This document shows, piece by piece, positions 1 to 32,242 of a stretch of 64,000 nt of DNA. The notes beneath the pieces are model-generated. The model was not told where the DNA came from, did no database searches, and saw only the letters and a list, made by a program, of their open reading frames with translations. The translations under genes and the position numbers were made by a program. Numbering within the stretch: position 1 is the first letter of the stretch; every line of letters begins with the position of its first letter. Origin of the DNA: a virus; IMG/VR virus record IMGVR_UViG_3300005805_000042. The stretch is one strand, 5' to 3'.

Positions 1-497
1 TCATCGATAGCATAATAACCCAAATTTTCAGGTTTTTCCAATTCAATTACTAAATCATATACACTTTGGTCATACAAAATCATATTAGTAGCAAAAATAC
101 CACGATGATGCTCTTCCTTTGGTGGCAGATTAGTAATATCCAATAACAAAGGGTATTTTTCACTACGATTGACAGGTCTATTTAGCGTAGGTGATAAATT
201 CATAATTCCAAATTGCAAATCAACAATTGATGGGTTTATTTGCTCTATTAATGATTTTGCATAAGGCATTATTGTACAATCATCCTCAATAATTAAAACA
301 CATTCTAAATTCAACTTCTTAGCTATTTTCAGGATATCTATATGAGAACGTGAACATCCTACATGACTGTTCGTATCAACAGCACTAAATCTTTCAAACT
401 CCCAACCAATATAATCCATTTCTAATTCTATTGATTTCATTCTATCAGACCTTCTATCAAGATTTACAATAAATTTTTTTACGTTATTAAGGTTCAT
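1..497 (-). CDS. Glycosyltransferase family 25, runs off window edge (not in ORF track)
   Basis: Manual translation from ATG at 497: MNLNNVKKFIVNLDRRSDRM...VGCSRSHIDIL...LIIEDD; no stop before position 1; GT25 motifs (INL..R.DR, GC..SH, EDD). Confidence 0.85.
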   Translation of the reverse strand, partial: MNLNNVKKFIVNLDRRSDRMKSIELEMDYIGWEFERFSAVDTNSHVGCSRSHIDILKIAKKLNLECVLIIEDDCTIMPYAKSLIEQINPSIVDLQFGIMNLSPTLNRPVNRSEKYPLLLDITNLPPKEEHHRGIFATNMILYDQSVYDLVIELEKPENLGYYAID

Positions 498-505
498 AGT
501 TTTAA

Positions 506-1240
506 TTAATTTTCTGTTGGGAAATTTTTCATGTTTCGAAGTCGATTCATATAGGAGTAGTCAGACATCTTATTCAAAATGTTGGAATAAGAGGGTCTTT
601 GATTAAATAGTTGTGGATAATGAAAATAAATCCTTAAATTATGTTTTAGTATTTCTTTTACCCCTTTCACACAGTTATCCATTTTCCAATGCTTTTTCAA
701 AGCTAGAACGCTGTAGTAACTATCGATTTGTTCGCCATAAACTACTAAGTCTTTGTCTAAATAGTTGAAATTATTAACAACATATTCAGCGAACTTAAGA
801 GAGGAAAGATATGCTGTTGTTTGAACAAATTTGTTTGGTTTGATTAAATTATTACTAACTAATTCAGCTGGCTCTAAAAGACAAGCACCCAAAAATAATA
901 AATCAAAATCTGTTGGATAAATCCCAACTAGCATTTCATTTGTAAGATTACGATTCAAATTGTCACAAATATCAAGATAAAAGTCATCTTCAAAAATAAT
1001 TACTTTTTCCCATTTGTTTTCGACCTGCATTCTTAGAATTTCCATGTGACTATGCGTACAACCACGAATAACCCAACCGGAATCACTATCTTCAGTAATT
1101 TTTATTGCGTCAAATCGCTCGACCCCAACAATGTTGTTCTTTTCGAATTCTTGAAGGGATTGGCTTAACCTATCTTCTCTTTCTTTGAGATTGATTAAAA
1201 AACCTTTATCGGCAATTTTGATATTGTTCCAAGTGACCAT
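506..1240 (-). CDS. Glycosyltransferase family 25
   Basis: FLINLKEREDRL, RGCTHSHMEIL, IIFEDD motifs. Confidence 0.85.
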   Translation of the reverse strand: MVTWNNIKIADKGFLINLKEREDRLSQSLQEFEKNNIVGVERFDAIKITEDSDSGWVIRGCTHSHMEILRMQVENKWEKVIIFEDDFYLDICDNLNRNLTNEMLVGIYPTDFDLLFLGACLLEPAELVSNNLIKPNKFVQTTAYLSSLKFAEYVVNNFNYLDKDLVVYGEQIDSYYSVLALKKHWKMDNCVKGVKEILKHNLRIYFHYPQLFNQRPSYSNILNKMSDYSYMNRLRNMKNFPTEN

Positions 1241-1243
1241 GAA

Positions 1244-2491
1244 TTACAAGTTTCCTGTTAAACGGTCACACCATCCTTTAGATTCAGAGTGGGGCCAAAC
1301 AACCCAATAAGCAGGTTTTTGAGTAGTTTGAAAATCTCTCCAAATTTTACAATATTTGTCAGGGTCATTCATCATTCTCGAAATCTCAGCTTTGTCCGCA
1401 TCTTTTCTAAACAATGTCGAATCATCCGAACCGTGAAAGGCAACAACCCAAAAATCATAGTCTTTTTCAGGTACACTAGCATAATTTACATCAATACAAT
1501 GTTTGAAGACTTGGGCAAAATCTTTTTTCCAATCTTCCTCAGTTTCATAGTTGTATGGATTAGGTGGGTAATTTTTATCTAAGGTATATTGTTGAACGGC
1601 ACGATTTTCAAACAACAGTCCAGAATATTTTTCATAATCCTTTAAAGTTCTTTCCGTTCCAAATCCAAAAGGTCCATCGTGACCCTCTTGAGTTTCACCA
1701 TCCATACCAAATAATTTTCTATTTGTAAGGTGAGACTTGTTGTTTTTATCAACCCACTGCTTGTCATCATCCCATTGTTTGGTCCTTCCCTTACGAGTGT
1801 ACTCGTGCCAAATAAGAACTTTATGGGGGTGAAACAAATCATAACCCCAAGTATATGCTCTTGCGGCAATTGAGATTTCCTCACCATGAAAATAATATTC
1901 AGGATTGTGTTGAACCTCCTTTGAGAATTGCCCAAGAGTGAACGCGTAATGCGCAGAATAAAATCTTGCGGTAACAGGTTCTTTCATATCTCTCCACCCT
2001 GGAATTGTTTCAGGAAGAAAAAATACAGCACCCTCGGGAATAAATCTATCAAACACCATTCTCCATGGTTCTTGAACTCTACCAGCTGGGTCGTTCTCAG
2101 GGTCAAATGATGAAACATATCCTGTTAACAAAGGCTTCTTATGTCCTTTCTTTTGTAGTTGTTTAACCATCTTAATCATTTCATCGTCCCAATTGGGTGC
2201 AAATCTCATGTGAGAATCAATTTGCATAGTGTACTCCTCACCCTCGTAAACTTGTTGAGTTAAATTTCTTGCCCAACAAACACCTTTAGACTCTTCGTAT
2301 GGAATATCTAAAATTCTAAAACGCTTATCATTTTTATATTCTGTTAAATCATCAAATTTATCCTCAGGATTAAATTGCCTTGCAATACCAAATCTGAGAT
2401 TCTTTGGCCTTTTTGCATTTGCAATCATATCCTTTAGAGTGCTGACAAGTTGGGGGTCTCTATAAGAGGCTATTTGAACAAATATTTTCAT
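1244..2491 (-). CDS. GT60-family (Gnt1/Gnt2-like) GlcNAc transferase with extra ~90 aa C-terminal domain
   Basis: IFVQIASYRD, GVCWARN, QIDSHMRF, HGEEISIAARAYTWGYD motifs typical of GT60; no signal peptide or TM segment. Confidence 0.85.
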   Translation of the reverse strand: MKIFVQIASYRDPQLVSTLKDMIANAKRPKNLRFGIARQFNPEDKFDDLTEYKNDKRFRILDIPYEESKGVCWARNLTQQVYEGEEYTMQIDSHMRFAPNWDDEMIKMVKQLQKKGHKKPLLTGYVSSFDPENDPAGRVQEPWRMVFDRFIPEGAVFFLPETIPGWRDMKEPVTARFYSAHYAFTLGQFSKEVQHNPEYYFHGEEISIAARAYTWGYDLFHPHKVLIWHEYTRKGRTKQWDDDKQWVDKNNKSHLTNRKLFGMDGETQEGHDGPFGFGTERTLKDYEKYSGLLFENRAVQQYTLDKNYPPNPYNYETEEDWKKDFAQVFKHCIDVNYASVPEKDYDFWVVAFHGSDDSTLFRKDADKAEISRMMNDPDKYCKIWRDFQTTQKPAYWVVWPHSESKGWCDRLTGNL

Positions 2492-2550
2492 TAAATAAAT
2501 TTTTAATAAAAATAAACATAAGGATAATAAACTGAATATTCCCTTAAAAC

Positions 2551-2580
2551 AAAAAACCCCTCACAAAAGAGGGGGGTTTT
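2551..2580 (-). terminator. Intrinsic terminator after the Thr/Pro-rich gene block
   Basis: Minus strand CCCCTC-TTTTGT-GAGGGG followed by T6. Confidence 0.75.
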
Positions 2581-2594
2581 ACTGTTTTAATATT

Positions 2595-3575
2595 TTAAAT
2601 TACCTGAAAATTAATGGTTTCTGAAGCACCTGACGCACCCCATTGAATCAAATAAGGACCACCGGGTACGGTAACTCCCAATGTTGCCAAAGTTGTTGCC
2701 GTAAATGTTCCAGTACCATTGAGAGCTCCTCCAACATATCCCAGAGGGACCACCAAATTACCGAATCCATCTATCCCGAAATTATTACCTGTTGAAATAT
2801 CTGCATTTATAGGTAGAAAACCACTTCCAAATGGTATTGGATTAAAAGTAGAACCTGAGTAGGTGCTGTAGTTACCTCCACTTCCCACACTAAATTGTCC
2901 CGTACTCGGTCTAATACCTGAACCAAAACCACTGAATGAATCTACGAAATTCAATGAAGACAGGTCTGCAGTACCTGTTCCTGATAAAACAACATCAGGT
3001 GCCACTTCTTGTATTGTAAAGAATAGACCTTGAATAGTTGGTGTTGCGGAAGGTGTTGGTGTCAATGTCGTTGTTGTGGTCGGAGTCGATGTTACAGTTG
3101 GGGTGTTGGTTGGGGTTTCTGTGGTAGTAGGTGTTGGAGTTTCTGTATTAGTTGGTGTTGGAGTGTTGGTTGGAGTTTCTGTATTAGTTGGTGTTGGAGT
3201 GTTGGTTGGGGTTTCTGTGTTAGTAGGTGTCGGAGTTTCTGTATTTGTTGGTGTTGCTGTCAAAGAAGCGGTTAAACTTACGGTTGGAGTATTAGATGGT
3301 GTTAATGATGGCGTGGGTGTGGGCGTTGGTGTTACATTCCCCGTTCCACTAACAGATGGTGTTGGTGGTATTACAAAAGGAAAATCACCCAAATCATCAA
3401 CACTAATTACACTTGATGATGCGGTACTATAAGTTCCTGTTATTAACCAAACATTTAATGTTGTGTTTGGCTCGATTAAAATATTATAGTTCCACATCTG
3501 ATTGGAACATTCCTGATATGAAAACACCCCATTAGAGCTGGTTGTGTTGGTTAAAATATATTTTCTACAAGCCAT
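2595..3575 (-). CDS. Thr/Pro-rich (mucin-like stalk) putative virion decoration protein
   Basis: ~110 aa PTPT/PTNT/TETP repeat between a Cys-containing N-terminal domain and a Gly/Ser/Thr-rich beta-type C-terminal domain; late-type motif variant upstream. Confidence 0.65.
   Translation of the reverse strand: MACRKYILTNTTSSNGVFSYQECSNQMWNYNILIEPNTTLNVWLITGTYSTASSSVISVDDLGDFPFVIPPTPSVSGTGNVTPTPTPTPSLTPSNTPTVSLTASLTATPTNTETPTPTNTETPTNTPTPTNTETPTNTPTPTNTETPTPTTTETPTNTPTVTSTPTTTTTLTPTPSATPTIQGLFFTIQEVAPDVVLSGTGTADLSSLNFVDSFSGFGSGIRPSTGQFSVGSGGNYSTYSGSTFNPIPFGSGFLPINADISTGNNFGIDGFGNLVVPLGYVGGALNGTGTFTATTLATLGVTVPGGPYLIQWGASGASETINFQVI
3040..3370 (-). repeat. Coding low-complexity tandem repeat ([10 protein letters not shown]), including an exact 36-bp duplication
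   Basis: GGAGTTTCTGTATTAGTTGGTGTTGGAGTGTTGGTT is identical at 3136-3171 and 3172-3207. Confidence 0.9.
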
Positions 3576-3622
3576 AATTTATGATTATAAAAGTAAATAT
3601 CTAAGATTTACAATTAGACCTA

Positions 3623-4189
3623 TTAACACGTACCAGTATTAATAATTAATGTGCCACTAATTTGGATAATTTTTACACCATCAGAAATTGTGAAGTTTGC
3701 ACCTATTGGTGGTATCGTCAATTCTCGGTTACCGTAAACATTGTCACCCACAGTTAATTGTCTAAAAGGTTTGGTTGAATACAATGTCACATTTGACGGA
3801 AACCCCCCGAATTGATTTATTTGCTGACATACATCCTGAAAATAACCACCAGTTTTTAAGTTTTGAATATAAACAGGTGAAGGAGTTACTGATGGTGTTA
3901 CTGTATTTGTTGGTGTTGGTGTTTGAGTTATTGGTGTGGAAGTCAAGCTTACCGTTGGTGTAACAGTTGGTGTTATAGAAGGTGTTGGTGTTGCAGATGG
4001 ACATGGTCCCAAATCATCAATTGTCAGAGGTGCACCATATAATTCAACAGTGATTAATTCAGCACATAGGGTTTCAGAAAATAGAGGTGATATTTGAGTT
4101 ATGTTTACACTACCAGTACAACCGGTCCATTTATAGTAACCATCTTGTACGGAATTATAATTTGTTATTCTGTAGTATAAACAAGACAT
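3623..4189 (-). CDS. Thr/Pro-rich putative virion protein
   Basis: Central PTPSITPTVTPTVS...[15 protein letters not shown] linker, Cys-containing flanks. Confidence 0.6.
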   Translation of the reverse strand: MSCLYYRITNYNSVQDGYYKWTGCTGSVNITQISPLFSETLCAELITVELYGAPLTIDDLGPCPSATPTPSITPTVTPTVSLTSTPITQTPTPTNTVTPSVTPSPVYIQNLKTGGYFQDVCQQINQFGGFPSNVTLYSTKPFRQLTVGDNVYGNRELTIPPIGANFTISDGVKIIQISGTLIINTGTC

Positions 4190-4201: not shown

Positions 4202-4834
4202 TTAAAATGTCTTGTTCAAAACAAATAAATCACTGTAGATATAGTTCAATGGGGCGATAGTTTCAAATTGAACCGTTATATCCAATGTGTTTGATATCGT
4301 GGTGTCAAAATCAACATTATTTGTTGTTTGGAAAGCGGTTCCATATACTTGTCCATTACCTTTAACTACTTGAAAATTACCGTGAGTGGAAATCGACGCG
4401 ACTGTGGGACCACCTATACTACGAATGGTAAAAAAAACACTCATAAACCAATTATCACCACCTGCTGAAGGGTTAAAAGCACCACTTGTTGCAAGTATAA
4501 CAGAACCTGACTTAAGTCTTATTGTAATATCATCGTTAGTATTATCCAAAACACCTCCCATAATAAGTTGAAAACTATCACCAACAGAAAATCCATTTGC
4601 GGGAACATTTAATGTACCAACACCATTACCAATTATTGTTGTCTCAGAAGTTGTCCCACTTACTGTAACACTGTTACCAGTTTGGGAAAAGAGACCATAA
4701 ACTTGAGGATATGGGTTTAGAGAACCTTGTTTCACTCTGTATGTTGTACCGGATTGTGCAACAGCAAATTCCGCATCAGAAGTTATTCCTGAAGATAATA
4801 ACTCGGGAAGTTGGGAAATGGGTAAATTTGGCAT
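4202..4834 (-). CDS. Putative virion/fibre-associated protein
   Basis: N-terminal MPNLPISQLPEL...AVAQSGTTYRV resembles fibre attachment motifs; beta-rich, S/T/G-rich; TATTTATA 7 nt upstream. Confidence 0.55.
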   Translation of the reverse strand: MPNLPISQLPELLSSGITSDAEFAVAQSGTTYRVKQGSLNPYPQVYGLFSQTGNSVTVSGTTSETTIIGNGVGTLNVPANGFSVGDSFQLIMGGVLDNTNDDITIRLKSGSVILATSGAFNPSAGGDNWFMSVFFTIRSIGGPTVASISTHGNFQVVKGNGQVYGTAFQTTNNVDFDTTISNTLDITVQFETIAPLNYIYSDLFVLNKTF

Positions 4835-4860: not shown

Positions 4861-7800
4861 TTATAATCCGTATTTTGATTTATCGGCATTGAAGTTTTGT
4901 AATATTTGAGATGGTGTTAGTGATGTGCTATACATTCTTATAATTCCAACGGTTCCCTTAAATGGAACTTGTAAATTACCAGTAGTTGCCGCTACTCTAC
5001 CCGCAATACCAACAGGACTTGTATTACTTACTTGGTTAACACCAACTAAACTTGTTGTTCCGCCAGAAATACCATTTCGGTAAACCGTCAATGTGTCAGT
5101 TACAAAATCAAAGACTGCTACTAGTTGTACCCAAGTATCCACAGAAAATCCGGTCAAACTAACCGAAGGGAAATTACTTCCATCATAAGCGGCGACTAAC
5201 ATGCTACTCGCACCTTCATTAAATCTAATTGTGTAAGGATATCTTGATTCGTTATTTAAATTCCACTTTTCCAATAGTTCTGCTTCACCTGAGTTTGGTT
5301 GACCGTTTGAAGGGTTAAACCATATTTCAACCGTATATTGTTGGGTATTTGTAAAGTTTGTCACCCCGTCCACACTCGGTATTCTACCATAAGATGATGT
5401 TCCGTTAAATGTAAATCCACTTAATGCGTTGTAAGTTGGACTACCCGATAAAGTGGCATCTGTACTACCCACAGTTGTATCCCAAACAGTTCCTGAACCA
5501 ACATAACTACTTGGTAATAACTGTAGTTGTAAGTTTGATGTTACAATGTTAGGTGTTACTGATGGTGTAGGTGTAATAGTATTAGTTGGTGTTATTGTAT
5601 TTGTTGGAGTAACCGTAGGTGTTGATGTTGATGTAGGGGTGGGTGTTGGTTCAACAAATCTTGGTGCCAAGAAATTATATTGTTGTGTGATTTCAGAAAG
5701 CGACAATTGTCTATTGTAGAAATACATGTTGGCAACATGTCCCCAAGGCTGAGGAACAATATCATTATTACCCCATCCCCAATGTGTAGTTCCACCAGCA
5801 CCCTCATTGATTGTACTTCCCACCTGTGAACCATTTATGTAGAATGTTTGAGACGAGTTTGTCCCTACTACTGCATATTGAACCCAAACACTTGTTTCAC
5901 CTGATAAATCATACCCTGAACTTACGAATCCTGTTGCCCAATATCCTAATGTATTTGTTCCATCAGGTATTGTGATTGGTGTGATTTTAGGAGGTCCTTT
6001 TGTATAAAGCACTGTTCTAAATCCAGCATTACTAGATATCAATCTTGCCCAAGTAATATATGTGTATCCTGAATTTGGTAATAAAGGTCCTGTTGCATTG
6101 TAATCAACTCTATTAGTCCCTGTAGTACAATCAAAACATTTTATACCGTTAAGAACTGTGTAAGTTGCACCGATTAATGTGTGATTATACCCCCCTGTTA
6201 TATCATAAACTGTTGTACCTGTTCCAGGATAACTTGAGTTCTCGTACGCGTCAAGTTGTATAATTAATCCAGATGTAACCAAACTTGGTGTTGACGATGG
6301 TGTCAGTGTATTTGTTGGTGTTTGAGTATTTGTTGGTGTTTGAGTAATAGTGGGTGTATTAGTTGGTGTTGTAGTTTGTGTAGGAGTTGGTGTTGGTTGA
6401 ATTGGCTCTATCAAAATACCACTCTCATCTTCTTGGAGAATCATGAAATAGTTTTCTTGAAGAAGAAACCCTTCGTCAGGAAGTGTTGGTGTGACTGTTG
6501 GTGTTGGTGTGTTTGTTGGAGTACCCGTAGTTGTTTCAGAAGGAGTGTTCGTTGGGGTTTGTGTTGCTGTCGGCGTTTGAGTTTCCGTTGCTGTTGGAGT
6601 TAAACCAACAGTTGCTGTTGGAGTTGGTGTACTTGTTGGTGTTTCGGTTGGCGTATTTGTTGGTGTATCCGATGGAGTATTTGTAGGAGTTTCGGTTGGG
6701 GTGTTTGTAGGGCTATCCGAGGGGGTATTTGTTGGAGTTTCAGATGGAGTGTTAGTTGGTGTTTCAGTAGGCGTATTTGTGGGAGTTTCACTTGGAGTAT
6801 TTGTGGGAGTTTCAGTTGGGGTATTAGTTGGTGTCTCTGTATTGGTTGGAGTGTTTGTCGGAGTCTCTGTTGGAGTATTTGTTGGTGTTTCAGTGTTAGT
6901 TGGGGTAGGTGTATTGGTTGGGGTTTCCGTATTTGTTTGAGACGGAGTGTTAGTAGGTGTTTCTGTGTTGGTCGGAGTTACCGTAGGTGTTACGGTTGGA
7001 CTTGGAGTTGGTGGTATAATAACGAAACAATCAGGACAATCCGGGTCTAATAAATCATATTTGTTTTTTAGAATCCTAAAATTGTGTTTTACCTCAGAAG
7101 CATCTAAAGGTTCTACATACATCCTAAAGGAACTAATTTCACCAATAAAACTTCCACCAAAAACTTCTTCAAGAAATATGTTTGTTGTAAGTCCAGAATA
7201 TATGGTATTATCTAAATCTTCGGTAGTTAAACACTCGGGGTCTTGTTGGTATGTAATACCTGAGAGTTCTGCGGGACAACCCCCTGAGAAAGTTAAATTA
7301 TCTTTTAATCCTTGAGTACCACCCCCCACTGAAATATTAAAGGGTACACCAACCTGTCTTTCTTTAAAGGTATTAAGAGGTCTTGGAATTATTTCCTCAA
7401 AATCCTCACAAACCATAAAGAGTCTACCATTGACAAAAATCTTTAAAGTTCCGAGTCTGAACTCTCTCTGTTGTAACCAAAGGTCATCGATATAAACTTG
7501 AGTGGTTTTTGCCGGAGTATAACCCGAATAACCCTCCTCGTGGGTTATTGGTGGCATAACCAAACTCACACTATTATTGGCGGAAGTTGCGGTAAAGACC
7601 TGTTCAACAATTTGACTTAATCCACCCAGATAATCTAAATCTTTACAATCAAAATACACATTTCTTTCGAAGACAGCATCAATCTGTACCCAATGTTCAA
7701 TTTCACTATATTGAGTAAAACGACAGTCATCAAATATTCCTTTAGTTGAACACCATTCAACTGTTGTCACCCCTGTTACAAAACTTGTTCCTGTTAAACA

Positions 7801-8893: not shown

Positions 8894-8921
8894 ATAAATA
8901 CCCTTCTTTTGAGTATTTATA
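8894..8921. promoter_or_regulatory. Back-to-back pair of putative late promoter motifs GTATTTAT
   Basis: ATAAATAC at 8894-8901 (GTATTTAT on minus, 10 nt from ATG 8883) and GTATTTATA at 8913-8921 (11 nt from ATG 8933). Confidence 0.65.
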
Positions 8922-19428: not shown

Positions 19429-19433
19429 TTTTA

Positions 19434-20141: not shown

Positions 20142-20153
20142 AAAATATAAAAA

Positions 20154-21017: not shown

Positions 21018-21022
21018 TATCA

Positions 21023-23185: not shown

Positions 23186-23620
23186 ATGATTTTAATTTCA
23201 CACCGTGGGAACATAGATGGTAGATTAGAAAATGTGGAAAATTCTCCAGATTACATAACTTTTGCATTGAATCAAGGGTATGATGTCGAAATAGATGTTT
23301 GGTACATTGATTCTAAATTTTATTTAGGACATGATGAGCCACTTTACAAAATTGAAGAGAAATTCTTAGAAAACCAAAATCTTTGGTGTCACGCTAAAAA
23401 CGAAAATGCGCTTTTTAAAATGTTACAAAATAAAAAAATACATTGTTTTTGGCATCAATCAGATGATTATACACTCACATCCAAAGGGATACCGTGGGTT
23501 TACCCCGGAAAAAAAGTTTCTGAAAAAGGAATCTGGGTTTTACCGGAACGTACCAATTACAAAAATATTAAAATAAATTGTTTGGGCATTTGTTCAGACT
23601 ATATTTCAAATTACACGTGA
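23186..23620 (+). CDS. Small GDPD/PLC-like phosphodiesterase-fold protein
   Basis: ISHRGN, ENSP, GYDVEIDVW, LWCHAK, GICSD. Confidence 0.75.
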   Translation: MILISHRGNIDGRLENVENSPDYITFALNQGYDVEIDVWYIDSKFYLGHDEPLYKIEEKFLENQNLWCHAKNENALFKMLQNKKIHCFWHQSDDYTLTSKGIPWVYPGKKVSEKGIWVLPERTNYKNIKINCLGICSDYISNYT

Positions 23621-24990
23621 TAAAACTAATTATTTTCGATTTGGATGGTGTTTTGGTAGAAGCTAAAAACATTCATTATGATGCTCTTAATCTAGCTATT
23701 GAGAAGTATGATAAAAATTGTGTGATTGACTGGAATGAACATTTGAGTAAATACGACGGCTTAAAAACCCAACAGAAACTAGAAATGTTAACAAAAGACA
23801 AAGGGCTTTCATCCAAATTTCATAAACTTATTTGGGATGAAAAACAAAAAATTACTCTAAGATTATTGAGTGATTTGAAAAAAAACAACGAGTTAATCGA
23901 GTTATTTTTTTTATTATCAGAAAATGGTTACAAAATTGCTTGTTGTAGTAATTCTATACGAAAAACAGTTCTCACTGTATTATCTAAATTAGGTATAATA
24001 GAATTTTTTGACTTAATTGTGTCAAATGAAGACGTATTAAATTCTAAGCCTCATCCAGAGATGTATTGGAAGTGCATATCAAAAATGTCTGTCTTACCAG
24101 AACAGACTTTGATTGTCGAGGACTCGCCTTATGGTTTGCTAGCAGCCTCAAGGACTAATTCGCATATCTTAAGAGTGCAAAACCCGGGTGAAGTTAATAA
24201 AAATAACATAAATAAAAAATTACAACAAATTGAAAAAAAATCATTTATGAAAACACCAAAATGGCATGATGATAAATTAAACATTTTAATACCGATGGCT
24301 GGGGCTGGGTCACGATTCGAAAAAGCGGGTTATACTTTCCCTAAACCATTGATTGATGTTGAGGGCGAACCCATGATTAAGTTGGTTTCGGAAAATCTAA
24401 ATATTAAGGCAAACTTTATTTATATTGTGCAAAAAAAACATAGAGAAAAATATAATCTAGATACTTTATTAAACTTAGTTTCTCCTGGATGTAGAATAGT
24501 CGAAATTGATGGGATAACTGAAGGTGCTGCTGTTACAACACTACTAGCTAAAGATTTAATAGATAACGACTCACCACTTATTATGGCTAACTCTGACCAA
24601 TTTGTTGAGTGGGATTCCAATGAATTTATGTACAAAATGGTTGAGACACAAGCTGATGGTGGTATAGTTACCTTCAAGGCAACGCATCCGAAGTGGTCAT
24701 TTGCTAAAATTGATGATAATGGTTATGTTACAGAAGTTGCAGAAAAAAACCCAATTTCAGATATTGCTACTGTGGGCATTTATTATTGGGCAAAAGGCTC
24801 TGATTATGTAAAATATGCTGAGCAAATGATACAGAAAGATATTCGCACAAATAATGAATTTTATGTTTGTCCAGTATTCAATGAAGCTATTTTAGGTGGA
24901 AAAAAAATCAGAACATATGAAATTGAAAAAATGTGGGGTTTAGGAACACCAGAGGATTTAAATGTTTACCTTAATAGAAAACAAAACTAA
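23617..24990 (+). CDS. HAD phosphatase fused to a sugar-phosphate nucleotidyltransferase
   Basis: IIFDLDGVL, KPHPE, IVEDS (HAD); LIPMAGAGSRF..PKPLI, NSDQ, VAEK, EFYVCP (NTP transferase); likely GTG start at 23617 overlapping the upstream TGA. Confidence 0.85.
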   Translation: MIKLIIFDLDGVLVEAKNIHYDALNLAIEKYDKNCVIDWNEHLSKYDGLKTQQKLEMLTKDKGLSSKFHKLIWDEKQKITLRLLSDLKKNNELIELFFLLSENGYKIACCSNSIRKTVLTVLSKLGIIEFFDLIVSNEDVLNSKPHPEMYWKCISKMSVLPEQTLIVEDSPYGLLAASRTNSHILRVQNPGEVNKNNINKKLQQIEKKSFMKTPKWHDDKLNILIPMAGAGSRFEKAGYTFPKPLIDVEGEPMIKLVSENLNIKANFIYIVQKKHREKYNLDTLLNLVSPGCRIVEIDGITEGAAVTTLLAKDLIDNDSPLIMANSDQFVEWDSNEFMYKMVETQADGGIVTFKATHPKWSFAKIDDNGYVTEVAEKNPISDIATVGIYYWAKGSDYVKYAEQMIQKDIRTNNEFYVCPVFNEAILGGKKIRTYEIEKMWGLGTPEDLNVYLNRKQN

Positions 24991-24998
24991 TTTTACTT

Positions 24999-26111
24999 AT
25001 GTCACAATATTCAATACCACAATTTCAACCGTACATTGATGAAAAAGAGTACGAAGCTATAAAATCTTGTTTTGACCTAAATTGGATAACTGAAGGTCCG
25101 AAATCAACAGAGTTTGTTAATAAACTTTTAGAAATGATGGGTGTAAAGTATGGTGTGTTAGCGCCTAATGGAACCTTATCGTTATACATGGCCCTGAAGG
25201 CTCTAGGCATTGGTAAAGGAGATGAAGTAATTGTTCCTAATTTTACATTTATAGCTTCCGCAAATGCAATAGAAATGGTGGGTGCTAAACCAATTTTCTG
25301 TGATGTTCAAGAATCCGATTTACATATTGATTTAAAAAAAGCTGAAAAACTTGTTACAAGAAAAACTAGAGCAATTATGCCTGTGCACATATATGGAATG
25401 GCATGTGATATGGATGCGGTAATGATGTTTGCCAAAAAACATAAACTTAAAGTTGTAGAAGATGCTGCTCAAGCAGTCGGTGTAAAATGGAACGGTAAAC
25501 AAGCCGGCACATTTGGAGACATTGGGAGTTTTTCGTTTTTTGCTGATAAAACTTTGACAACTGGTGAAGGTGGTTTGGTAGTAACTAATGATGAAGAAAT
25601 TTACAATAAACTTCTTTTTATGAGAAATCAGGGTAGAATTAATAGAGGTAGTTTTATTCACCCAGAAATTGGTTACAATTTTAGAATGACCGACCTCCAA
25701 ACTGCTATTGGTTTGGTTCAGCTTTCAAAGTTCCCAGAAATCGTTAAAAAGAAAAAAAAAATTATTGATACTTACAAAAAATACTTGAGCCCTAAAATCC
25801 GTATTATTGAACCCTTAGAAGGCTCGACACATATTCCTTTCAGAGTTTGTATTACAGTACCGGGAGGTAGTGACCAATTAATGTCTCACTTGAAAGATTT
25901 TGGAATAGAACCAAGAACTTTCTTTTATCCATTACACAAACAACCTTGTTATGAAGACAAATCTTTTTGGAGATTTTTAAAGACAAAAAATGATTTATCC
26001 GTGTCTGAAAAATTATATGAAGAAGGAGTATGTTTACCTTCCTGGGTTGGAATCTCAACAGAACAAGTAAAACTTATTTGTGACGCAATTAATAACTTCA
26101 AAAAATGGTAG
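24999..26111 (+). CDS. DegT/DnrJ/EryC1/StrS PLP-dependent sugar aminotransferase
   Basis: WITEGP, NGTLSL, PVHIYG, VVEDAAQA, FSFFADKTLTTGEGG, GYNFRMT. Confidence 0.95.
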   Translation: MSQYSIPQFQPYIDEKEYEAIKSCFDLNWITEGPKSTEFVNKLLEMMGVKYGVLAPNGTLSLYMALKALGIGKGDEVIVPNFTFIASANAIEMVGAKPIFCDVQESDLHIDLKKAEKLVTRKTRAIMPVHIYGMACDMDAVMMFAKKHKLKVVEDAAQAVGVKWNGKQAGTFGDIGSFSFFADKTLTTGEGGLVVTNDEEIYNKLLFMRNQGRINRGSFIHPEIGYNFRMTDLQTAIGLVQLSKFPEIVKKKKKIIDTYKKYLSPKIRIIEPLEGSTHIPFRVCITVPGGSDQLMSHLKDFGIEPRTFFYPLHKQPCYEDKSFWRFLKTKNDLSVSEKLYEEGVCLPSWVGISTEQVKLICDAINNFKKW

Positions 26112-26620
26112 TAGAAAAAAGTAAAATATTTGGTGAAGATGTAAAAATCATCCAACCTCAAATCTTTCAAGATTTTCGTGGTGAGTATGTTGAAACCTGG
26201 AATGTAGAACTCTACAAACAATTCGGCGTTGAATTCAAACAAGACGACATAAGTGTTTCTGTACGACATACCTTAAGAGGTTTTCATGGAGACCAAAACA
26301 CATATAAACTTATCTCATGTTTATATGGGAGTTTGTATCAAGTAATTGTTGATATGAGACCTAAAAGTCCAACATATCTTAAATGGGAAGCCTTTGCCCT
26401 AAATGATAAAAATAGAAAGCAAATATTGATACCACCTATGTTTGGTAACGCTCATTTGGTGATGAGTGATACTGCAATTTTCCACTACAAACAATCAACC
26501 CTTTATGAAGGGCAAGGAAAACAATTCACAATAAAATGGGATGACCCAAAAGTGGGGGCATATTTTCCAATAAAAAATCCGATTCTATCAGAACGGGATA
26601 CATTTGTCGATTATTTATGA
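26105..26620 (+). CDS. rmlC: dTDP-4-dehydrorhamnose 3,5-epimerase family
   Basis: FQDFRGEY.E, QDDIS.S..TLRGFHG, VDMRPKSPTY, GNAH, IKWDDP. Confidence 0.9.
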   Translation: MVVEKSKIFGEDVKIIQPQIFQDFRGEYVETWNVELYKQFGVEFKQDDISVSVRHTLRGFHGDQNTYKLISCLYGSLYQVIVDMRPKSPTYLKWEAFALNDKNRKQILIPPMFGNAHLVMSDTAIFHYKQSTLYEGQGKQFTIKWDDPKVGAYFPIKNPILSERDTFVDYL

Positions 26621-27549
26621 AAAAAATTTTAGTAACTGGTGGCGCAGGATACATTGGAAGTATATTAGTTCCAGAATTATTAAAAAAGGGGCACGAAGTA
26701 ACAGTATATGATAGTTTGTTGTTTGGGGGAAATAGTCTTTTAACAAATTTTTTAAATCCCAATTTTTATTTTATTCAAGGAGATATTAGAGATGAAGAAA
26801 AATTAAAAAAATGTTTAGTTGGTAAGGATATTATTATCCATCTGGCGGCAATTGTTGGATATCCCGCTTGTCAAAAAAACCCTCAATTAACAATAGATGT
26901 TAATTTGACAGCAACGAAAAAACTTGTTGATAATTTATTACCAGAGCAATACTTGCTTTTTGGGTCTACTGGTAGTAATTACGGGTCTGTTGAGGATGGT
27001 GTATGTACTGAAGAGACCGAGTTAAATCCACTAAGTCTTTATGGGGAAACCAAAACCGAGGCGGAAAAATATATTATATCTAACTCAAAATCCACAGCAT
27101 TTCGTTTCGCCACAGCATTTGGCTTGTCACCTCGTTTAAGGTTAGATTTGTTAATAAATGATTTTGTTAATAAAGCAATCAACCAAAAATATATTGTTGT
27201 TTATGAATCTCATTTTATGAGGACATTTATTCATGTTAAAGACATTGCGCGTTCATTTTTATTTGCAATAGAAAATGAAAAAAAAATGAGTAAACAGGTC
27301 TATAATGTTGGTGGTAATTCCATGAATTATAGTAAAAGACATGTTTGTAATTTAATACAAGATAAGATAGATTATTATTTACATTTGGCAGATATTGGTG
27401 CGGATGCAGACAAAAGAAATTATGTCGTTTCGTATGATAAAATAAATCGATTAGGATTTGAAACAACGATTTCATTAGAAGAAGGTATTGAAGAATTAGT
27501 AAAAGGAATTAAAATAATAAAACGAGAAGACCCATATTCGAATGCCTAA
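26617..27549 (+). CDS. NAD-dependent sugar epimerase/reductase (extended SDR)
   Basis: TGGAGYIG, HLAAIVG, STGSNYG, YGETK, RFATAFG. Confidence 0.9.
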   Translation: MKKILVTGGAGYIGSILVPELLKKGHEVTVYDSLLFGGNSLLTNFLNPNFYFIQGDIRDEEKLKKCLVGKDIIIHLAAIVGYPACQKNPQLTIDVNLTATKKLVDNLLPEQYLLFGSTGSNYGSVEDGVCTEETELNPLSLYGETKTEAEKYIISNSKSTAFRFATAFGLSPRLRLDLLINDFVNKAINQKYIVVYESHFMRTFIHVKDIARSFLFAIENEKKMSKQVYNVGGNSMNYSKRHVCNLIQDKIDYYLHLADIGADADKRNYVVSYDKINRLGFETTISLEEGIEELVKGIKIIKREDPYSNA

Positions 27550-28291
27550 AACCTATTTCGATAAATTCTCCAAATATTATGACATAATTCATAATGAAAA
27601 AAATTATGAAATTGAATGTAATTTGATTTTGAAATATTCAAATGGTAATAATACACTTTTAGATGTTGGTTGTGGTACGGGAAATCATTCAAAAATATTA
27701 TCTAACCATTTTAACGAAATTGTAGGATGCGATTATTCTGAATCTATGTTGAAAATTGCCAAGGAAAAGTTTGAAAAATTCAACATACAAAACGTTACAT
27801 TTACAAGCGAACCATTAGAGTTTATTAAAGGAAACTTTGACACTGTAATTTCTATGTTCAACGTTATCAATCACATTGAAAGTTTGGAAGAATTAATTAA
27901 TTTTTTCAGAGAAATAAAAAAAAAATTAATTCCTGGTGGTAAATTTATTTTTGATTGTTGGAACGGAACTGCCTGCAGAATAGAACCCCCCAAAAAAAAT
28001 AGTAAAAGATTTATTCACTACGACTGGTATTCATTAGAACTCGAAACAAAAACTGAAAACAATCTTTTTGAATCATTATCAAATGTTAAAACAAATGTGA
28101 AAATTTATTCAGAAACTGAAAAAGTTGATGAATTTGATTATGAAATATTGCATAAATTATGGACCCCTGATATTTTGATTTCAGTCGTGGAAATGGTTGG
28201 CATGAAAATAGAAAAAATTTTTCCATCAATATTTGATTCTGAAACAGCCAAAAAAAGCGATTATCGCATAACATTTATTTGTAAAAATTAA
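27542..28291 (+). CDS. Class I SAM methyltransferase (amino-sugar N-methyltransferase-like)
   Basis: YYDIIH..KNY, LDVGCGTG, CDYSESML, ISMFNVINH, LIPGGKFIFD. Confidence 0.8.
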   Translation: MPKTYFDKFSKYYDIIHNEKNYEIECNLILKYSNGNNTLLDVGCGTGNHSKILSNHFNEIVGCDYSESMLKIAKEKFEKFNIQNVTFTSEPLEFIKGNFDTVISMFNVINHIESLEELINFFREIKKKLIPGGKFIFDCWNGTACRIEPPKKNSKRFIHYDWYSLELETKTENNLFESLSNVKTNVKIYSETEKVDEFDYEILHKLWTPDILISVVEMVGMKIEKIFPSIFDSETAKKSDYRITFICKN

Positions 28292-30376: not shown

Positions 30377-30377
30377 A

Positions 30378-31433
30378 ATGGACCAACCACAAATAGACAA
30401 AGTCAAACTTTCGATTAGTAATCTAAGAGAGAAAAAATCAAAACTATATTTTTTCATTCACGATACTAAAGGTAATGCCAAATCCTCTATCAAATACATT
30501 TATGATTTGGCATTCACACTTAAACGCAGTGGATTTAATTCAATTATCCTACATGAGAAACCCGATTATACAGGAGTTGGTTCATGGTTGGGTGAAGAAT
30601 ATATGACTGAAATTCCACACCAAGTAATCGATGGGCAAAATGTTGAAATTGCACCTGAAGATTTCTTGATTGTCCCCGAAATTTTTGGTTTTATGATGGA
30701 CCAAGTTAAAAACCTACCTTGTGGTAAAATTGTGTTGACACAGTCTTACGCATATATGTTGGAAACTCTTCAACCTGGTCAGACTTGGAATCAGTATGGA
30801 TTCTTTAAAACCATTACCACATCTGAAGTACAAAAAGATTACATCAATAAAGTAATGAGAGGTCAATCCTATGATATCATCGAACCATTTATTTCTGATA
30901 TTTTCAAAAAAAGAAATTTACCACCACTACCTATTATTGGTATTCACTCGAGAGAACAAGAAGACACTATCAATCTTATCAAAACATTTTATCTAAGATT
31001 TCCACAATACAGATGGTTTACCTTCCGTGATTTAAGGGGTCTTTCTCAAGAAGAGTTTGCTAATGCAATTTCAGAGTGTTTCGTTTCAGTTTGGATTGAC
31101 AGACAAAGTGCTTACGGTACTTTCCCATTAGAATCGATGAAAGTAGGTGTTCCAGTAATTGGTATTACACCCAACTTGGTCCCTGAGTGGATGAATGAAA
31201 ATAACGGAATTTGGATAAAGGATGAAATTCTTCTATCAGACATTATTGCTGATTGGACCCAAAATTGGTTGGAAGATAACATTTCTGAAGAAATGTATAC
31301 GAATATGCAAGAAACTGTCGATAAACTTCCGACAAAAGAACAGTTCGAAAATAAAACCATAGATTTATTCACAGAATATCTCGAATTAAGAGCACAATCT
31401 ATGGAAGAACAAATCTCTAAATTTAACGATTAA
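30378..31433 (+). CDS. GT-B glycosyltransferase (GT4-like)
   Basis: IVPEIFG, LSQEEFANAISECFVSVWID...GTFPLESMKVGVPVIG. Confidence 0.75.
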   Translation: MDQPQIDKVKLSISNLREKKSKLYFFIHDTKGNAKSSIKYIYDLAFTLKRSGFNSIILHEKPDYTGVGSWLGEEYMTEIPHQVIDGQNVEIAPEDFLIVPEIFGFMMDQVKNLPCGKIVLTQSYAYMLETLQPGQTWNQYGFFKTITTSEVQKDYINKVMRGQSYDIIEPFISDIFKKRNLPPLPIIGIHSREQEDTINLIKTFYLRFPQYRWFTFRDLRGLSQEEFANAISECFVSVWIDRQSAYGTFPLESMKVGVPVIGITPNLVPEWMNENNGIWIKDEILLSDIIADWTQNWLEDNISEEMYTNMQETVDKLPTKEQFENKTIDLFTEYLELRAQSMEEQISKFND

Positions 31434-31435
31434 TT

Positions 31436-32242
31436 ATGAACACACCTTTAGACATTACAATTGTATTACCAATTAAATCTGCGGTATCCCGAGATTTCGA
31501 AGATTACTTCGAAAAAGCGATTACATCGATAAAGAATCAAAAAGTATCTGTAAAAGAACTATTGATTGTTACTACAACAGAAGAAAAATTAAACAATCAT
31601 GTTGATGGATTCGATTTTGGGGAAATTAATATGAGAAAAATTGTTTGGGACAAGGAAGCCACCTTTGCATCTCAAGTTAACTTTGGTATCGAAAATGCAA
31701 CTACAAAATGGGTTTCATTTTTCGAGTTTGATGATGAATACTCAACAATTTGGTTTGACAATGTTCGTAAGTACATGGGATATTACCCAATGGTACAGGC
31801 ATTCCTACCAGTTGTTGTTGATACCGATGAAAAAGGTACCTTCGCTGGTTTTACAAATGAAGCGGTATTTGCTGCAAACTTCGCACAAGAAGTTGGTTTT
31901 TTGACTAATGATATCCTTCAAGACTATCAAAATTTCCAAACCTCAGGTATGGTTATTCGTAAAGATGTTATTGATGATTTTGGTGGTTTTAAATCATCAA
32001 TCAAATTGACTTTTGTATATGAGTTCTTACTTAGACTTACATACAATTCTACATCAATTATGACAATTCCAAAACTTGGATACAAACACACCAATATGAG
32101 AGAGGGTTCTCTATTTTGGAATTACAAATTCGGTCAAGAAAAAATGTTGGATGAAGAAGTTAAGTTTTGGGTTCAATCGGCAAAAAAAGAGTACTTCTTC
32201 AAAGAAGATAGAACAATAAATTTCCAAGCAAGTAATGATTGA
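31436..32242 (+). CDS. GT2-like glycosyltransferase
   Basis: ITIVLP, QVNFG, VSFFEFDD, YEFLLR. Confidence 0.75.
   Translation: MNTPLDITIVLPIKSAVSRDFEDYFEKAITSIKNQKVSVKELLIVTTTEEKLNNHVDGFDFGEINMRKIVWDKEATFASQVNFGIENATTKWVSFFEFDDEYSTIWFDNVRKYMGYYPMVQAFLPVVVDTDEKGTFAGFTNEAVFAANFAQEVGFLTNDILQDYQNFQTSGMVIRKDVIDDFGGFKSSIKLTFVYEFLLRLTYNSTSIMTIPKLGYKHTNMREGSLFWNYKFGQEKMLDEEVKFWVQSAKKEYFFKEDRTINFQASND

What the first reader, a model, noticed from the sequence alone, without database searches (positions are those of the whole stretch)
1..32242. Candidate phage-encoded mucin-type virion glycocalyx: GT60 initiator, Thr/Pro-repeat virion proteins and a 20 kb glycan-building cluster
Seen: a cytoplasmic GT60 homologue (1244-2491) and two GT25s lie directly beside late-type proteins with long [16 protein letters not shown] tracts (2595, 3623, 4861; a fourth at 54473 beside the head module). 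About ten more GTs plus NDP-sugar, amino-, methyl- and sulfotransferases follow at 11.5-32.2 kb. No flippase, polymerase or lipid-carrier initiating transferase is visible in the window. Established: eukaryotic GT60 enzymes (Dictyostelium Gnt2, Trypanosoma cruzi OGNT2) start mucin-type O-glycans by adding GlcNAc to Thr in Thr/Pro-rich repeats, including PTVT repeats. Glycosylated virions are known in giant viruses and some mycobacteriophages. Inference: this Bacteroidota phage O-GlcNAcylates its own mucin-like stalks in the cytoplasm and extends them into a complex coat, possibly for shielding, adhesion or receptor mimicry. Caveat: a terminator (2551-2580) separates GT60 from the repeat genes, so they are linked but not co-transcribed.
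Basis: partly seen in the sequence, partly recalled or inferred. Interest (0 to 1): 0.88.

Follow-up and report, generated by a model that had tools for sequence, protein, structure and literature searches.

The report
Phage mucin-like proteins beside GT60 glycosyltransferase
A large uncultured lake phage encodes fibre-like proteins with long threonine/proline tracts directly beside a soluble enzyme of the family that starts mucin-type sugar chains in protists. The same pairing recurs independently in other phages and in bacteria, so the phage probably sugar-coats its own proteins, but no sugar has been measured.

Summary
ORF 1244-2491(-) is a full-length PF11397/GT60 homologue with no membrane segment. 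It has the DxH motif plus a distal His, and its predicted fold is closest to animal mucin-initiating GalNAc-transferases. Two GT25 genes follow it. Four late-type ORFs (2595, 3623, 4861, 54473) carry 46-259-residue Thr/Pro tracts. A sugar-gene island at 11.5-32.2 kb has no membrane machinery, but only 6 ORFs (7 domains) are detectable glycosyltransferases, not about ten.

- In 47 of 47 related phage contigs, a T/P-tract gene lies just upstream of GT60.
- XacN1-type jumbo phages acquired GT60 separately and are also full of T/P tracts. XacN1 virions have published PAS-positive glycoprotein bands.
- Eight large phages without GT60 gave 0-1 T/P pattern hits.
- Bacterial homologues in about 7 lineages sit beside T/P-rich proteins with Tat-like signals or PqqD peptide-binding domains.
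- Of 31 viral contigs chosen only for T/P tracts, 15 carry GT60.

Unproven: the sugar, the acceptor residue (Thr or hydroxyproline), virion location, and any role of the strain-variable 20 kb island. GT60 is not obligatory, since 5 of 9 complete T/P-bearing viral genomes lack it.

This scan reached the same reading on at least 8 other genomes.

The parts
3..497 (-). GT25 glycosyltransferase, truncated by the window edge; last gene visible in the GT60 operon
   Evidence: PF01755 E 8.7e-12. Homologues lie downstream of GT60 in 53 related phage loci.
506..1240 (-). GT25 glycosyltransferase, 3 bp downstream of GT60
   Evidence: PF01755 E 3.1e-10. Found in 24 related loci.
1244..2491 (-). Soluble GT60-family (PF11397) candidate polypeptide HexNAc-transferase
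   Evidence: PF11397 E 7.9e-69. D92-x-H94 and H229 are invariant in 33 homologues. AlphaFold model pLDDT 95.5. The top ~30 PDB folds are nearly all GT27 polypeptide GalNAc-transferases. No TM segment.
2551..2580 (-). Intrinsic-terminator-like hairpin plus T-run between the T/P genes and GT60
   Evidence: Sequence read.
2595..3575 (-). 326-aa protein: small N-terminal module, 103-residue T/P tract, Gly/Ser-rich C-terminal domain
   Evidence: No signal peptide. phrog_15511. N-terminal module 30% identical to that of 3623.
3623..4189 (-). 188-aa protein with a 46-residue T/P tract; length conserved (175-190 aa) in many relatives
4202..4834 (-). 210-aa fibre-cluster protein without a T/P tract; preceded by TATTTAT
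   Evidence: 44% identity to a Flavobacterium phage elemoA ORF.
4861..8883 (-). 1340-aa fibre-like protein: conserved N-terminal 620 aa, three T/P tracts (259 residues), two ConA-like (Laminin_G_3) domains
   Evidence: PF13385 E 1e-20. phrog_8510 'virion structural protein'. N-terminus 65-90% conserved while the distal parts vary.
8894..8900 (-). TATTTAT promoter-like motif 17 nt upstream of the fibre gene
   Evidence: 18 of 36 motif copies lie within 45 nt upstream of genes, against 0.9 expected; these include the portal and protease genes.
11543..12757 (+). GT-B glycosyltransferase; start of the sugar island
   Evidence: phrog_7162 E 8e-44. Weak GT1 Pfam hit.
14099..16449 (+). Bifunctional GT2_5+GT4 glycosyltransferase (14099-15733) and a GT2 (15733-16449)
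   Evidence: The fusion is conserved in 5 of 5 relatives.
17751..21709 (+). GT10 fucosyltransferase-like ORF, unassigned ORF, sulfotransferase, PseB/FnlA-like UDP-GlcNAc 4,6-dehydratase, FkbM methyltransferase
   Evidence: The sulfotransferase has no close copy in relatives.
23578..28291 (+). NDP-sugar block: beta-PGM-like HAD fused to a nucleotidyltransferase, LegC/PseC-like aminotransferase, RmlC-like epimerase, SDR epimerase/dehydratase, SAM methyltransferase
   Evidence: The aminotransferase is not conserved in relatives.
30378..32242 (+). Weak GT1-like ORF and a GT2; end of the island
54473..55282 (-). 269-aa protein with a 122-residue T/P tract inside the head-gene block; preceded by TATTTAT
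   Evidence: Its wider neighbourhood is the head-gene block: prohead protease 44913, portal 47088, TerL 48996.

Best explanation
The window comes from a T4-like jumbo phage of freshwater Bacteroidota, probably with a Saprospiraceae-type host. ORF 1244-2491 encodes a soluble, metal-dependent GT-A enzyme of the GT60 family.

Proposed mechanism (inferred): late in infection this enzyme transfers a HexNAc from a UDP-sugar onto hydroxyl groups in the Thr/Pro tracts of the phage's own fibre-like proteins (2595, 3623, 4861 and probably 54473). This happens in the cytoplasm, before or during assembly. The co-operonic GT25 enzymes, and an HtrL+GT2 bifunctional transferase that lies just beyond the window edge in relatives, would then extend the first sugar into a short oligosaccharide. 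The result would be stiff, protease-resistant, mucin-like stalks between the globular domains.

Shown here: family, motif and fold of the enzyme; the tracts; the conserved linkage; recurrence in independent lineages.
Inferred: the acceptor, the sugar, the virion location and the function.

The strain-variable 11.5-32 kb island may supply unusual NDP-sugars and further transferases for the same glycans. That link is the weakest step (about 0.35).
For: (1) Enzyme.
- PF11397 at 233 bits.
- DxH plus a distal His are invariant; this motif is diagnostic of GT27/GT60 (PMC7185993).
- High-confidence model whose top ~30 PDB matches are nearly all polypeptide GalNAc-transferases.
- No TM segment or signal peptide.

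(2) Linkage in the phage clade.
- In 47 of 47 related IMG/VR loci with at least 3 kb of upstream sequence, a T/P-tract ORF lies upstream on the same strand, usually 55-150 bp away. There are almost none downstream.
- GT60 stays 78-99% identical while the T/P proteins range from 118 to 2194 aa.

(3) An independent phage lineage.
- XacN1, Xoo-sp13 and CM1 carry GT60 and the HtrL-GT2 partner.
- The tree puts XacN1 and Xoo-sp13 with Betaproteobacteria, and the window clade with Saprospiria.
- T/P DNA-pattern hits: 59 in XacN1, 110 in relative G002, 22 in Xoo-sp13 and 4 in CM1 (these two with a longer pattern), with controls at 0-1. Eight large phages without GT60 gave 0-1 hits.
- In XacN1 the tracts lie in ORF325 (next to the baseplate wedge), ORF369 (next to the tail-sheath stabiliser), ORF232-237 and ORF384.
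- XacN1 virions show at least two PAS-positive glycoprotein bands (PMC5852040).

(4) Bacteria.
- 11 of 80 GT60 loci, from about 7 lineages, have an immediate neighbour with a T/P tract of at least 40 residues.
- 8 of 12 such proteins (the 11 neighbours plus L110) carry a twin-arginine-like signal. The Saprospiria ones add a T9SS tail. Gemmatimonadota and Acidimicrobiia link a PqqD peptide-binding domain to the T/P tail or to GT60 itself.

(5) Reverse test. Of 31 viral contigs selected only by a long T/P pattern, 15 encode PF11397. In cultured phage records the frequency is 4 of 50,697.

(6) Co-regulation. A TATTTAT motif is shared by the T/P genes and the head genes.
Against: - There is no biochemical or proteomic evidence for this phage or its clade.
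- Within the clade the adjacency may simply be inherited synteny.
- Only two independent phage lineages were compared, and bacterial adjacency is seen in only 11 of 80 loci.
- 5 of 9 viral genomes that are at least 90% complete and carry T/P tracts lack GT60, so the tracts do not need it.
- A terminator separates GT60 from the T/P genes, and GT60 lacks the exact late motif.
- GT25 and HtrL families are best known from LPS core synthesis.
- Virion location of the T/P proteins rests on a ConA-like domain, a PHROG label and gene position; the fibre model failed (pLDDT 30).
- The identity of the XacN1 glycoproteins was not reported.
- P4H-type oxygenases in relatives leave the acceptor residue open.
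Confidence: 0.55

Rival explanations
1. The glycosyltransferases act on the host rather than the virion. The GT60 operon and the sugar island would remodel host LPS, capsule or the host's own secreted T/P-rich glycoproteins during infection, for example for superinfection exclusion or receptor masking. The phage T/P tracts would then be ordinary unglycosylated linkers.
For: - GT25 and HtrL_YibB families are typical of LOS/LPS core loci.
- The likely host lineage has its own GT60 module beside secreted T9SS T/P proteins, so a captured copy could act on those.
- The island varies between strains, as O-antigen loci do.
- GT60 is not under the late motif.
Against: - No lipid-carrier transferase, flippase, polymerase or any polytopic membrane protein occurs in 64 kb.
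- T/P tracts are abundant in the phages' own genomes exactly where GT60 is present, and absent in 8 large phages without GT60.
- XacN1 virions contain glycoproteins.
- The GT60 fold is of the polypeptide-transferase type.
Confidence: 0.15
2. GT60 glycosylates a different peptide or protein, and the T/P tracts are bare flexible spacers. The target might be a small RiPP-like peptide or a non-structural phage or host protein. The adjacency to fibre genes would be inherited gene order.
For: - PqqD/RRE domains and HprK-like genes in the Gemmatimonadota and related loci resemble RiPP clusters.
- 69 of 80 bacterial loci show no adjacent T/P protein.
- 5 of 9 complete T/P-bearing viral genomes lack GT60.
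- Pro/Thr linkers are common in secreted bacterial enzymes (general knowledge).
Against: - In the PqqD cases, the PqqD domain is fused to a T/P tail or is directly followed by a T/P protein. This points to the tract as the substrate.
- GT60 is strongly enriched among T/P-bearing viral contigs.
- Co-occurrence arose twice independently in phages.
Confidence: 0.15
3. The sugar genes hypermodify phage DNA, by glycosylating modified bases to evade restriction.
For: - A dUTPase/dCTP-deaminase-like ORF, an exonuclease and PhoH lie inside the island.
- In relatives the GT60 operon abuts the DNA polymerase gene.
- Phage DNA glycosylation by diverse glycosyltransferases is documented (Pyle et al. 2024, as cited in PMC12619734).
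Against: - No base-hydroxymethylase or known DNA-glycosyltransferase family was detected in the window.
- The GT60 family, fold and bacterial contexts are protein-directed.
- Sulfo- and methyltransferases and a GT10 suggest a complex glycan rather than a base adduct.
Confidence: 0.05

Closest known systems
Protist GT60 polypeptide alpha-GlcNAc-transferases (T. cruzi mucin pp-alpha-GlcNAcT; Dictyostelium Golgi enzyme; cytoplasmic Gnt1 acting on Skp1 hydroxyproline)
   Same: - Same Pfam family, PF11397.
- DxH motif.
- GT-A fold next to GT27.
- Candidate acceptors are Thr/Pro-rich repeats, as in T. cruzi mucins, where alpha-GlcNAc is added to Thr (PMC3769586).
- Soluble and cytoplasmic, like Gnt1.
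   Different: - Prokaryotic/viral and not membrane-anchored in a Golgi.
- Has an extra ~115-residue beta-rich C-terminal domain that is conserved in bacteria and phages.
- Activity, donor sugar and acceptor residue are untested.
- Its partners are GT25 and HtrL+GT2 enzymes, not the protist extension enzymes.
Xanthomonas jumbo phage XacN1 (with Xoo-sp13 and Stenotrophomonas phages CM1/RAS14)
   Same: - Encodes a 45-48% identical GT60 homologue (ORF334); the HtrL+GT2 partner was confirmed in XacN1 and Xoo-sp13.
- Many proteins with long T/P tracts, some next to baseplate and tail genes.
- Virions stain PAS-positive (PMC5852040).
   Different: - GT60 was acquired separately, from a proteobacterial lineage.
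- The operon holds a carbamoyltransferase instead of GT25s.
- T/P genes are dispersed rather than directly upstream.
- The paper did not link ORF334 to T/P tracts or identify the glycoproteins.
Mycobacteriophage virion glycosylation (Freeman et al. 2023, Cell Host Microbe 31:1216; cited in PMC12619734)
   Same: Phage-encoded glycosyltransferases near structural genes modify the phage's own virion proteins in the cytoplasm.
   Different: - According to the account quoted in PMC12619734, the acceptors there are the C-termini of the capsid and tail-tube subunits, not mucin-like tandem repeats in fibres.
- Whether those enzymes share a family with GT60 was not checked here.
- That case is experimentally proven; this one is not.
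Animal GT27 polypeptide GalNAc-transferases (GalNAc-T1, -T2, -T4, -T10)
   Same: - Closest solved folds.
- Same DxH-His metal site.
- Initiate dense O-glycans on Pro/Thr/Ser tandem repeats.
   Different: - Only 10-16% sequence identity.
- Different CAZy family.
- No ricin-type lectin domain was identified.
- Those enzymes are Golgi type II membrane proteins.
Gram-positive serine-rich-repeat adhesin glycosylation (GtfA/GtfB with accessory Sec; from general knowledge, not tested here)
   Same: Cytoplasmic O-HexNAc addition to long hydroxy-amino-acid repeats of a surface fibre before export. This is analogous to the bacterial GT60 plus Tat-signal T/P-protein modules seen here.
   Different: - Uses GT4-family enzymes, Ser-rich rather than Thr/Pro repeats, and SecA2/Y2 export.
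- None of these components is present in the window.

Membership tests
CAZy GT60 / Pfam PF11397 | Significant full-length match to the family profile | tested here: met
   PF11397 E 7.9e-69, 233 bits against a cut-off of 21, covering profile positions up to 350 of 352. 4534 homologue clusters in the 1.8-billion-protein library. The CAZy/dbCAN assignment itself was not run.
CAZy GT60 / Pfam PF11397 | DxH motif in place of DxD, plus a distal His for metal binding (shared with GT27) | tested here: met
   D92, H94 and H229 are invariant in 33 homologues at 35-50% identity. The motif is described in PMC7185993.
CAZy GT60 / Pfam PF11397 | GT-A fold closest to the GT27 polypeptide transferases | tested here: met
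   Model pLDDT 95.5. Foldseek top hits are GalNAc-T4, -T2, -T10, -T1 and TgGalNAc-T3, with E down to 2e-10.
CAZy GT60 / Pfam PF11397 | Retaining transfer of alpha-GlcNAc from UDP-GlcNAc | not testable with these tools
   Needs an enzyme assay.
CAZy GT60 / Pfam PF11397 | Polypeptide acceptor (Thr/Ser, or hydroxyproline) | tested here: inconclusive
   Indirect evidence only: adjacency to and co-occurrence with T/P tracts and PqqD fusions. P4H-type genes in relatives keep hydroxyproline open.
Mucin-type O-glycosylation system | Pro/Thr/Ser tandem-repeat acceptor domains | tested here: met
   Tracts of 46-259 residues in four ORFs, encoded by imperfect tandem repeats.
Mucin-type O-glycosylation system | Dense O-glycans actually attached to the repeats | not testable with these tools
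   No proteomic data exist for this clade. XacN1 has only PAS staining of unidentified bands.
Phage virion glycosylation (mycobacteriophage type) | The glycosylated proteins are virion components | tested here: inconclusive
   - ConA-like domains, a phrog_8510 label and a conserved N-terminus with variable C-terminus give a fibre-like architecture; the genes also share the late motif.
- The fold prediction failed and no isolate homologue was found for the N-terminus.
Lipid-carrier (Wzx/Wzy or ABC) surface-polysaccharide pathway | Initiating phosphoglycosyl transferase, flippase and polymerase with multiple TM helices | tested here: not met
   None of the 74 non-overlapping ORFs has more than one hydrophobic segment. 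No Pfam hit to such families.

The most novel reading that the evidence does not exclude
GT60 plus the HtrL/GT2 bifunctional transferase would form a widespread, undescribed prokaryotic pathway for cytoplasmic mucin-type O-glycosylation of Thr/Pro-rich proteins. Bacteria would export the pre-glycosylated products through Tat (and T9SS in Saprospiria). Jumbo phages would have captured the pathway at least twice to coat their own fibres, and this lake-phage clade would diversify the glycan through a strain-variable sugar island, giving a 'serotyped' virion glycocalyx.
Probability: 0.35. Interest if true: 0.85.

Novelty: new variant of a known kind. Interest (0 to 1): 0.7.

Why it matters
Phage-encoded glycosylation of virion proteins has been demonstrated experimentally only for a few mycobacteriophages, and PAS-positive virion bands have been reported for XacN1. 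A mucin-type version, with a GT60 initiator acting on Thr/Pro tandem repeats, would have several consequences.

- It would extend this biology to abundant freshwater jumbo phages.
- It would give a function to prokaryotic GT60 enzymes, for which I found no functional study in the papers searched here.
- It would explain the T/P tracts that litter large-phage fibre genes.
- It would suggest a new layer of host-range, stability or anti-defence variation, namely glycan 'serotypes' of virions.

The bacterial side is potentially as interesting: cytoplasmic glycosylation coupled to Tat export.

XacN1 is cultured and carries the same module, so the idea can be tested directly now.

Tried and rejected
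- AlphaFold of the fibre N-terminal 620 aa, with an 18-sequence alignment, gave pLDDT 30.5. It was unusable, so no fold search was run.
- tblastn of the fibre N-terminus against cultured phages found no match. The protein-atlas look-up returned only unnamed viral clusters.
- The GT60 sequence has no sequence homologue in the PDB; only the fold search was informative.
- NCBIfam gave no specific name for GT60, the T/P proteins or the unassigned island ORFs. PHROGs named only one more glycosyltransferase.
- TATAAATA, the T4 late promoter, is not the relevant motif. Its hits upstream of minus-strand genes are on the wrong strand; the real motif is TATTTAT.
- Blast of the Lewinellaceae 2OG-oxygenase against the window and all phage loci found nothing. 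A family search then found P4H-type genes elsewhere in relatives.
- I began fetching whole genomes of related isolates to count T/P proteins, then switched to DNA-pattern counts on whole records.
- Literature searches for GT60 in phages or bacteria found no functional study.
- No complex prediction was attempted, because an enzyme with a disordered substrate is a poor case for that tool.

Full report
WHAT THE WINDOW IS

The window is part of a T4-like large phage. It encodes:
- a major head protein (41172-43007, phrog_138, E 2e-67);
- a portal (47088-48953);
- a large terminase (48996-50756);
- a T4-type prohead protease (44913-45629).

The nearest cultured relatives by capsid protein are distant, at 41-44% identity over about half the protein. 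They are Flavobacterium phage immuto, Microcystis phage Mel-JY01 and a 484-kb uncultured phage. Earlier notes of this scan describe the same genome as an uncultured lake jumbo phage.

CHECKING THE OBSERVATION

The GT60 homologue. ORF 1244-2491(-) matches Pfam PF11397 at E 7.9e-69 and a phage family, phrog_24687, at E 3e-166. It has no hydrophobic segment.

The flanking genes. Two GT25 ORFs follow it on the same strand. Upstream on that strand lie four ORFs:
- 2595-3575, with 103 T/P-tract residues;
- 3623-4189, with 46;
- 4202-4834, with none;
- 4861-8883, with 259 T/P residues in three tracts separating two ConA-like Laminin_G_3 domains.

A fourth T/P protein, 54473-55282 (122 residues in tract), lies among the head genes. 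Apart from two short 13-14-residue stretches (ORFs 33406-35562 and 53287-54453), no other ORF in the 64 kb has a T/P tract. The tracts are encoded by imperfect tandem repeats of 12-48 nt. The terminator between 2595 and GT60 is real.

The sugar island at 11.5-32.2 kb contains:
- six ORFs (seven domains) with glycosyltransferase signatures;
- a GT10-like ORF, which is one of those six;
- a sulfotransferase and two methyltransferases;
- a PseB/FnlA-like dehydratase and a LegC/PseC-like aminotransferase;
- an RmlC-like epimerase and an SDR epimerase/dehydratase;
- a beta-PGM-like HAD fused to a nucleotidyltransferase.

This is fewer than the 'about ten' glycosyltransferases claimed. About six island ORFs stay unassigned. 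The island is interrupted by an exonuclease, a dUTPase and PhoH.

THE ENZYME

Thirty-three homologues at 35-50% identity keep D92, H94 and H229 invariant. This is the DxH-plus-His metal site that distinguishes GT27 and GT60 from other GT-A families (PMC7185993).

An AlphaFold model built on that alignment is confident, at pLDDT 95.5. Its top ~30 matches in the PDB are nearly all polypeptide GalNAc-transferases, the animal and Toxoplasma enzymes that initiate mucin O-glycans. There is no sequence-level PDB homologue.

The family is large in prokaryotes, with 4534 clusters at 50% identity. I found no functional study of a bacterial or phage member.

IS GT60 LINKED TO T/P TRACTS? FOUR TESTS

1. 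Within the clade. IMG/VR holds at least 383 relatives of this GT60, and the best 80 (78-99% identity) were examined.
- In all 47 loci with at least 3 kb of upstream sequence, a T/P-tract ORF lies upstream on the same strand, usually 55-150 bp away.
- T/P ORFs are essentially absent from the 10 kb downstream.
- The T/P proteins vary from 118 to 2194 aa, while GT60 and the N-terminal 620 aa of the long fibre are conserved. A conserved base with a variable tip is typical of fibres.
- This result could still be inherited synteny.

2. A second phage lineage. Only four cultured phages carry a homologue: XacN1, Xoo-sp13, CM1 and RAS14.
- A maximum-likelihood tree puts XacN1 and Xoo-sp13 beside Betaproteobacteria (100/100). 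It puts the window clade beside a Saprospiraceae/Lewinellaceae clade (94/90). The two acquisitions are therefore independent.
- A DNA pattern for T-P-T-x-T-x-T-P gave 110 hits in a 98%-complete relative and 59 in XacN1 (controls 0-1). It gave 0 in immuto, Mel-JY01 and the 484-kb phage.
- It gave 0-1 hits in five jumbo phages that are the next relatives of XacN1 and lack GT60.
- A longer pattern gave 22 hits in Xoo-sp13 and 4 in CM1.
- The XacN1 tracts are long and of the same style. They lie in ORF325 (3313 aa, after the baseplate wedge genes), ORF369 (beside the tail-sheath stabiliser), ORF232-237 and ORF384.
- The XacN1 paper reports at least two PAS-positive glycoprotein bands in virions. 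It names ORF334, the GT60 homologue, as one of two glycosyltransferases (PMC5852040). It does not identify the bands.

3. Bacteria. Eighty genomic loci with homologues were fetched.
- Eleven, from about seven lineages, have an immediate neighbour with a T/P tract of at least 40 residues. Only 24 such ORFs occur in the other ~1.2 Mb of flanks.
- The neighbours are real proteins.
- In Saprospiraceae and Lewinellaceae they have a twin-arginine-like signal, T/S/P repeats and a T9SS C-terminal domain.
- In Gemmatimonadota a PqqD domain is fused to a T/P tail.
- In an Acidimicrobiaceae MAG, PqqD is fused to GT60 itself and is followed by a Tat-signal T/P protein.
- PqqD domains are peptide-binding modules, so this points to a polypeptide substrate.

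4. The reverse test. Viral contigs were selected only by a long T/P pattern. Of the 31 searched, 15 carry PF11397, and 4 of the 9 that are at least 90% complete do so. Among cultured phage records the frequency is 4 of 50,697. Many of the 15 may belong to the window's clade, so they are not independent. The five complete genomes without GT60 show that T/P tracts do not require it.

A CONSERVED PARTNER

An HtrL_YibB+GT2 bifunctional protein of about 560 aa lies just downstream of GT60 in three settings:
- 30 of 80 bacterial loci;
- 76 of 80 phage loci;
- XacN1 and Xoo-sp13.

In the window it would fall beyond coordinate 1. In the 99%-identical contig L003 the gene order is: T/P genes, GT60, GT25, a 294-aa ORF, HtrL-GT2, then DNA polymerase. 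GT60 plus HtrL-GT2 therefore looks like the core module, and the GT25s look like clade-specific additions.

THE 20 KB ISLAND

The GT2_5+GT4 fusion is conserved in 5 of 5 relatives. The sulfotransferase and the aminotransferase have only ~30%-identical counterparts, or none, and none in the 98%-complete genome. The island therefore has a conserved core and a variable complement, like a serotype locus.

Nothing ties the island to the T/P proteins except position and the absence of membrane machinery. I give that link about 0.35.

REGULATION

The motif TATTTAT occurs 36 times in the window. Eighteen copies lie within 45 nt upstream of 17 genes, against 0.9 expected. Those genes include the portal, the prohead protease, 43038, 46353, the fibre gene 4861, 4202 and 54473. 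GT60 and the island lack it. This fits late expression of the T/P proteins and a different, possibly earlier, schedule for the enzymes. That is inference.

WHAT REMAINS OPEN

- The donor sugar.
- The acceptor residue. One Lewinellaceae locus places a P4H-type 2OG oxygenase beside the T/P protein. Relatives of this phage carry two or three PF13640 genes far from GT60. GT60 includes the Skp1 hydroxyproline GlcNAc-transferase (general knowledge).
- Whether the T/P proteins are in the virion. The fibre fold attempt failed.
- The biological role.

COMPARISON WITH KNOWN SYSTEMS

By profile, motif and fold the enzyme is a member of the GT60/PF11397 family. Activity is untested.

The proposed system would work like protist mucin initiation, in which alpha-GlcNAc is added to Thr of T. 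cruzi mucins (PMC3769586). It would also resemble mycobacteriophage virion glycosylation, but it differs from both in enzyme partners, acceptors and cellular setting.

It is best called a new variant of a known kind. The same theme was reached independently by this scan on at least eight other genomes. I consulted those notes only. I do not count them as evidence.

Noticed in passing
L085:8504-13092, L089:7374-12887, L097:8743-12972, L121:9923-12243, L135:9944-12129: Bacterial three-part module found across phyla: a T/P/S-rich protein, GT60, and an HtrL+GT2 bifunctional transferase. The T/P proteins carry twin-arginine-like signals. In Saprospiria they also have a T9SS C-terminal domain; in Gemmatimonadota they carry PqqD and are preceded by an HprK-like gene. 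This suggests cytoplasmic glycosylation followed by Tat export.
   Followed up: partly
L089:7374-7997: A P4H-type 2OG-Fe(II) oxygenase (PF13640) lies directly beside the T/P-rich protein of a Lewinellaceae GT60 locus. Relatives of the window's phage carry 2-3 PF13640 genes far from GT60 (G001, G002, G003). Hydroxyproline-linked glycosylation cannot be excluded.
   Followed up: partly
window, e.g. 8894-8900(-), upstream of 4202, 43038, 44913, 46353, 47088, 54473, 62450: The promoter-like motif TATTTAT lies 5-42 nt upstream of 17 of 74 genes (18 of 36 copies, against 0.9 expected). Most are head, fibre or unknown late-looking genes. It is not the T4 TATAAATA late promoter.
   Followed up: partly
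window 41172-43007(-): The major head protein is 611 aa. It aligns to T4-type capsid proteins in two pieces covering only 52-64% of its length, so it probably carries a large lineage-specific extension or insertion.
   Followed up: no
window 57090-59090(+): A 666-aa FtsH-like ATP-dependent protease (phrog_4871, E 3e-238) is encoded next to the head module.
   Followed up: no
window 23578-24990(+): A beta-phosphoglucomutase-like HAD domain is fused to an RmlA-like sugar-1-phosphate nucleotidyltransferase. This is an unusual fusion that could channel a beta-sugar-phosphate into NDP-sugar synthesis.
   Followed up: no
G007, G013, G019, G026, G030 (records behind L177, L218, L194, L193, L253): Five viral genomes that are at least 90% complete carry long T/P tracts but no PF11397 gene. 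Either another glycosyltransferase family serves them or their tracts are bare.
   Followed up: no
P0002, P0003, P0005, P0014 and others: Many GT60 homologues in the protein library are giant proteins of 1300-2460 aa with 2-4 tandem GT60 domains. Their origin and role were not examined.
   Followed up: no
window 2595-3575, 3623-4189, 4202-4834: The small fibre-cluster proteins look weakly paralogous. The N-terminal ~65 aa of 2595 and 3623 are 30% identical, and the C-terminal domain of 2595 weakly resembles 4202. This suggests a family of short modular fibres that differ in whether they contain a T/P spacer.
   Followed up: partly
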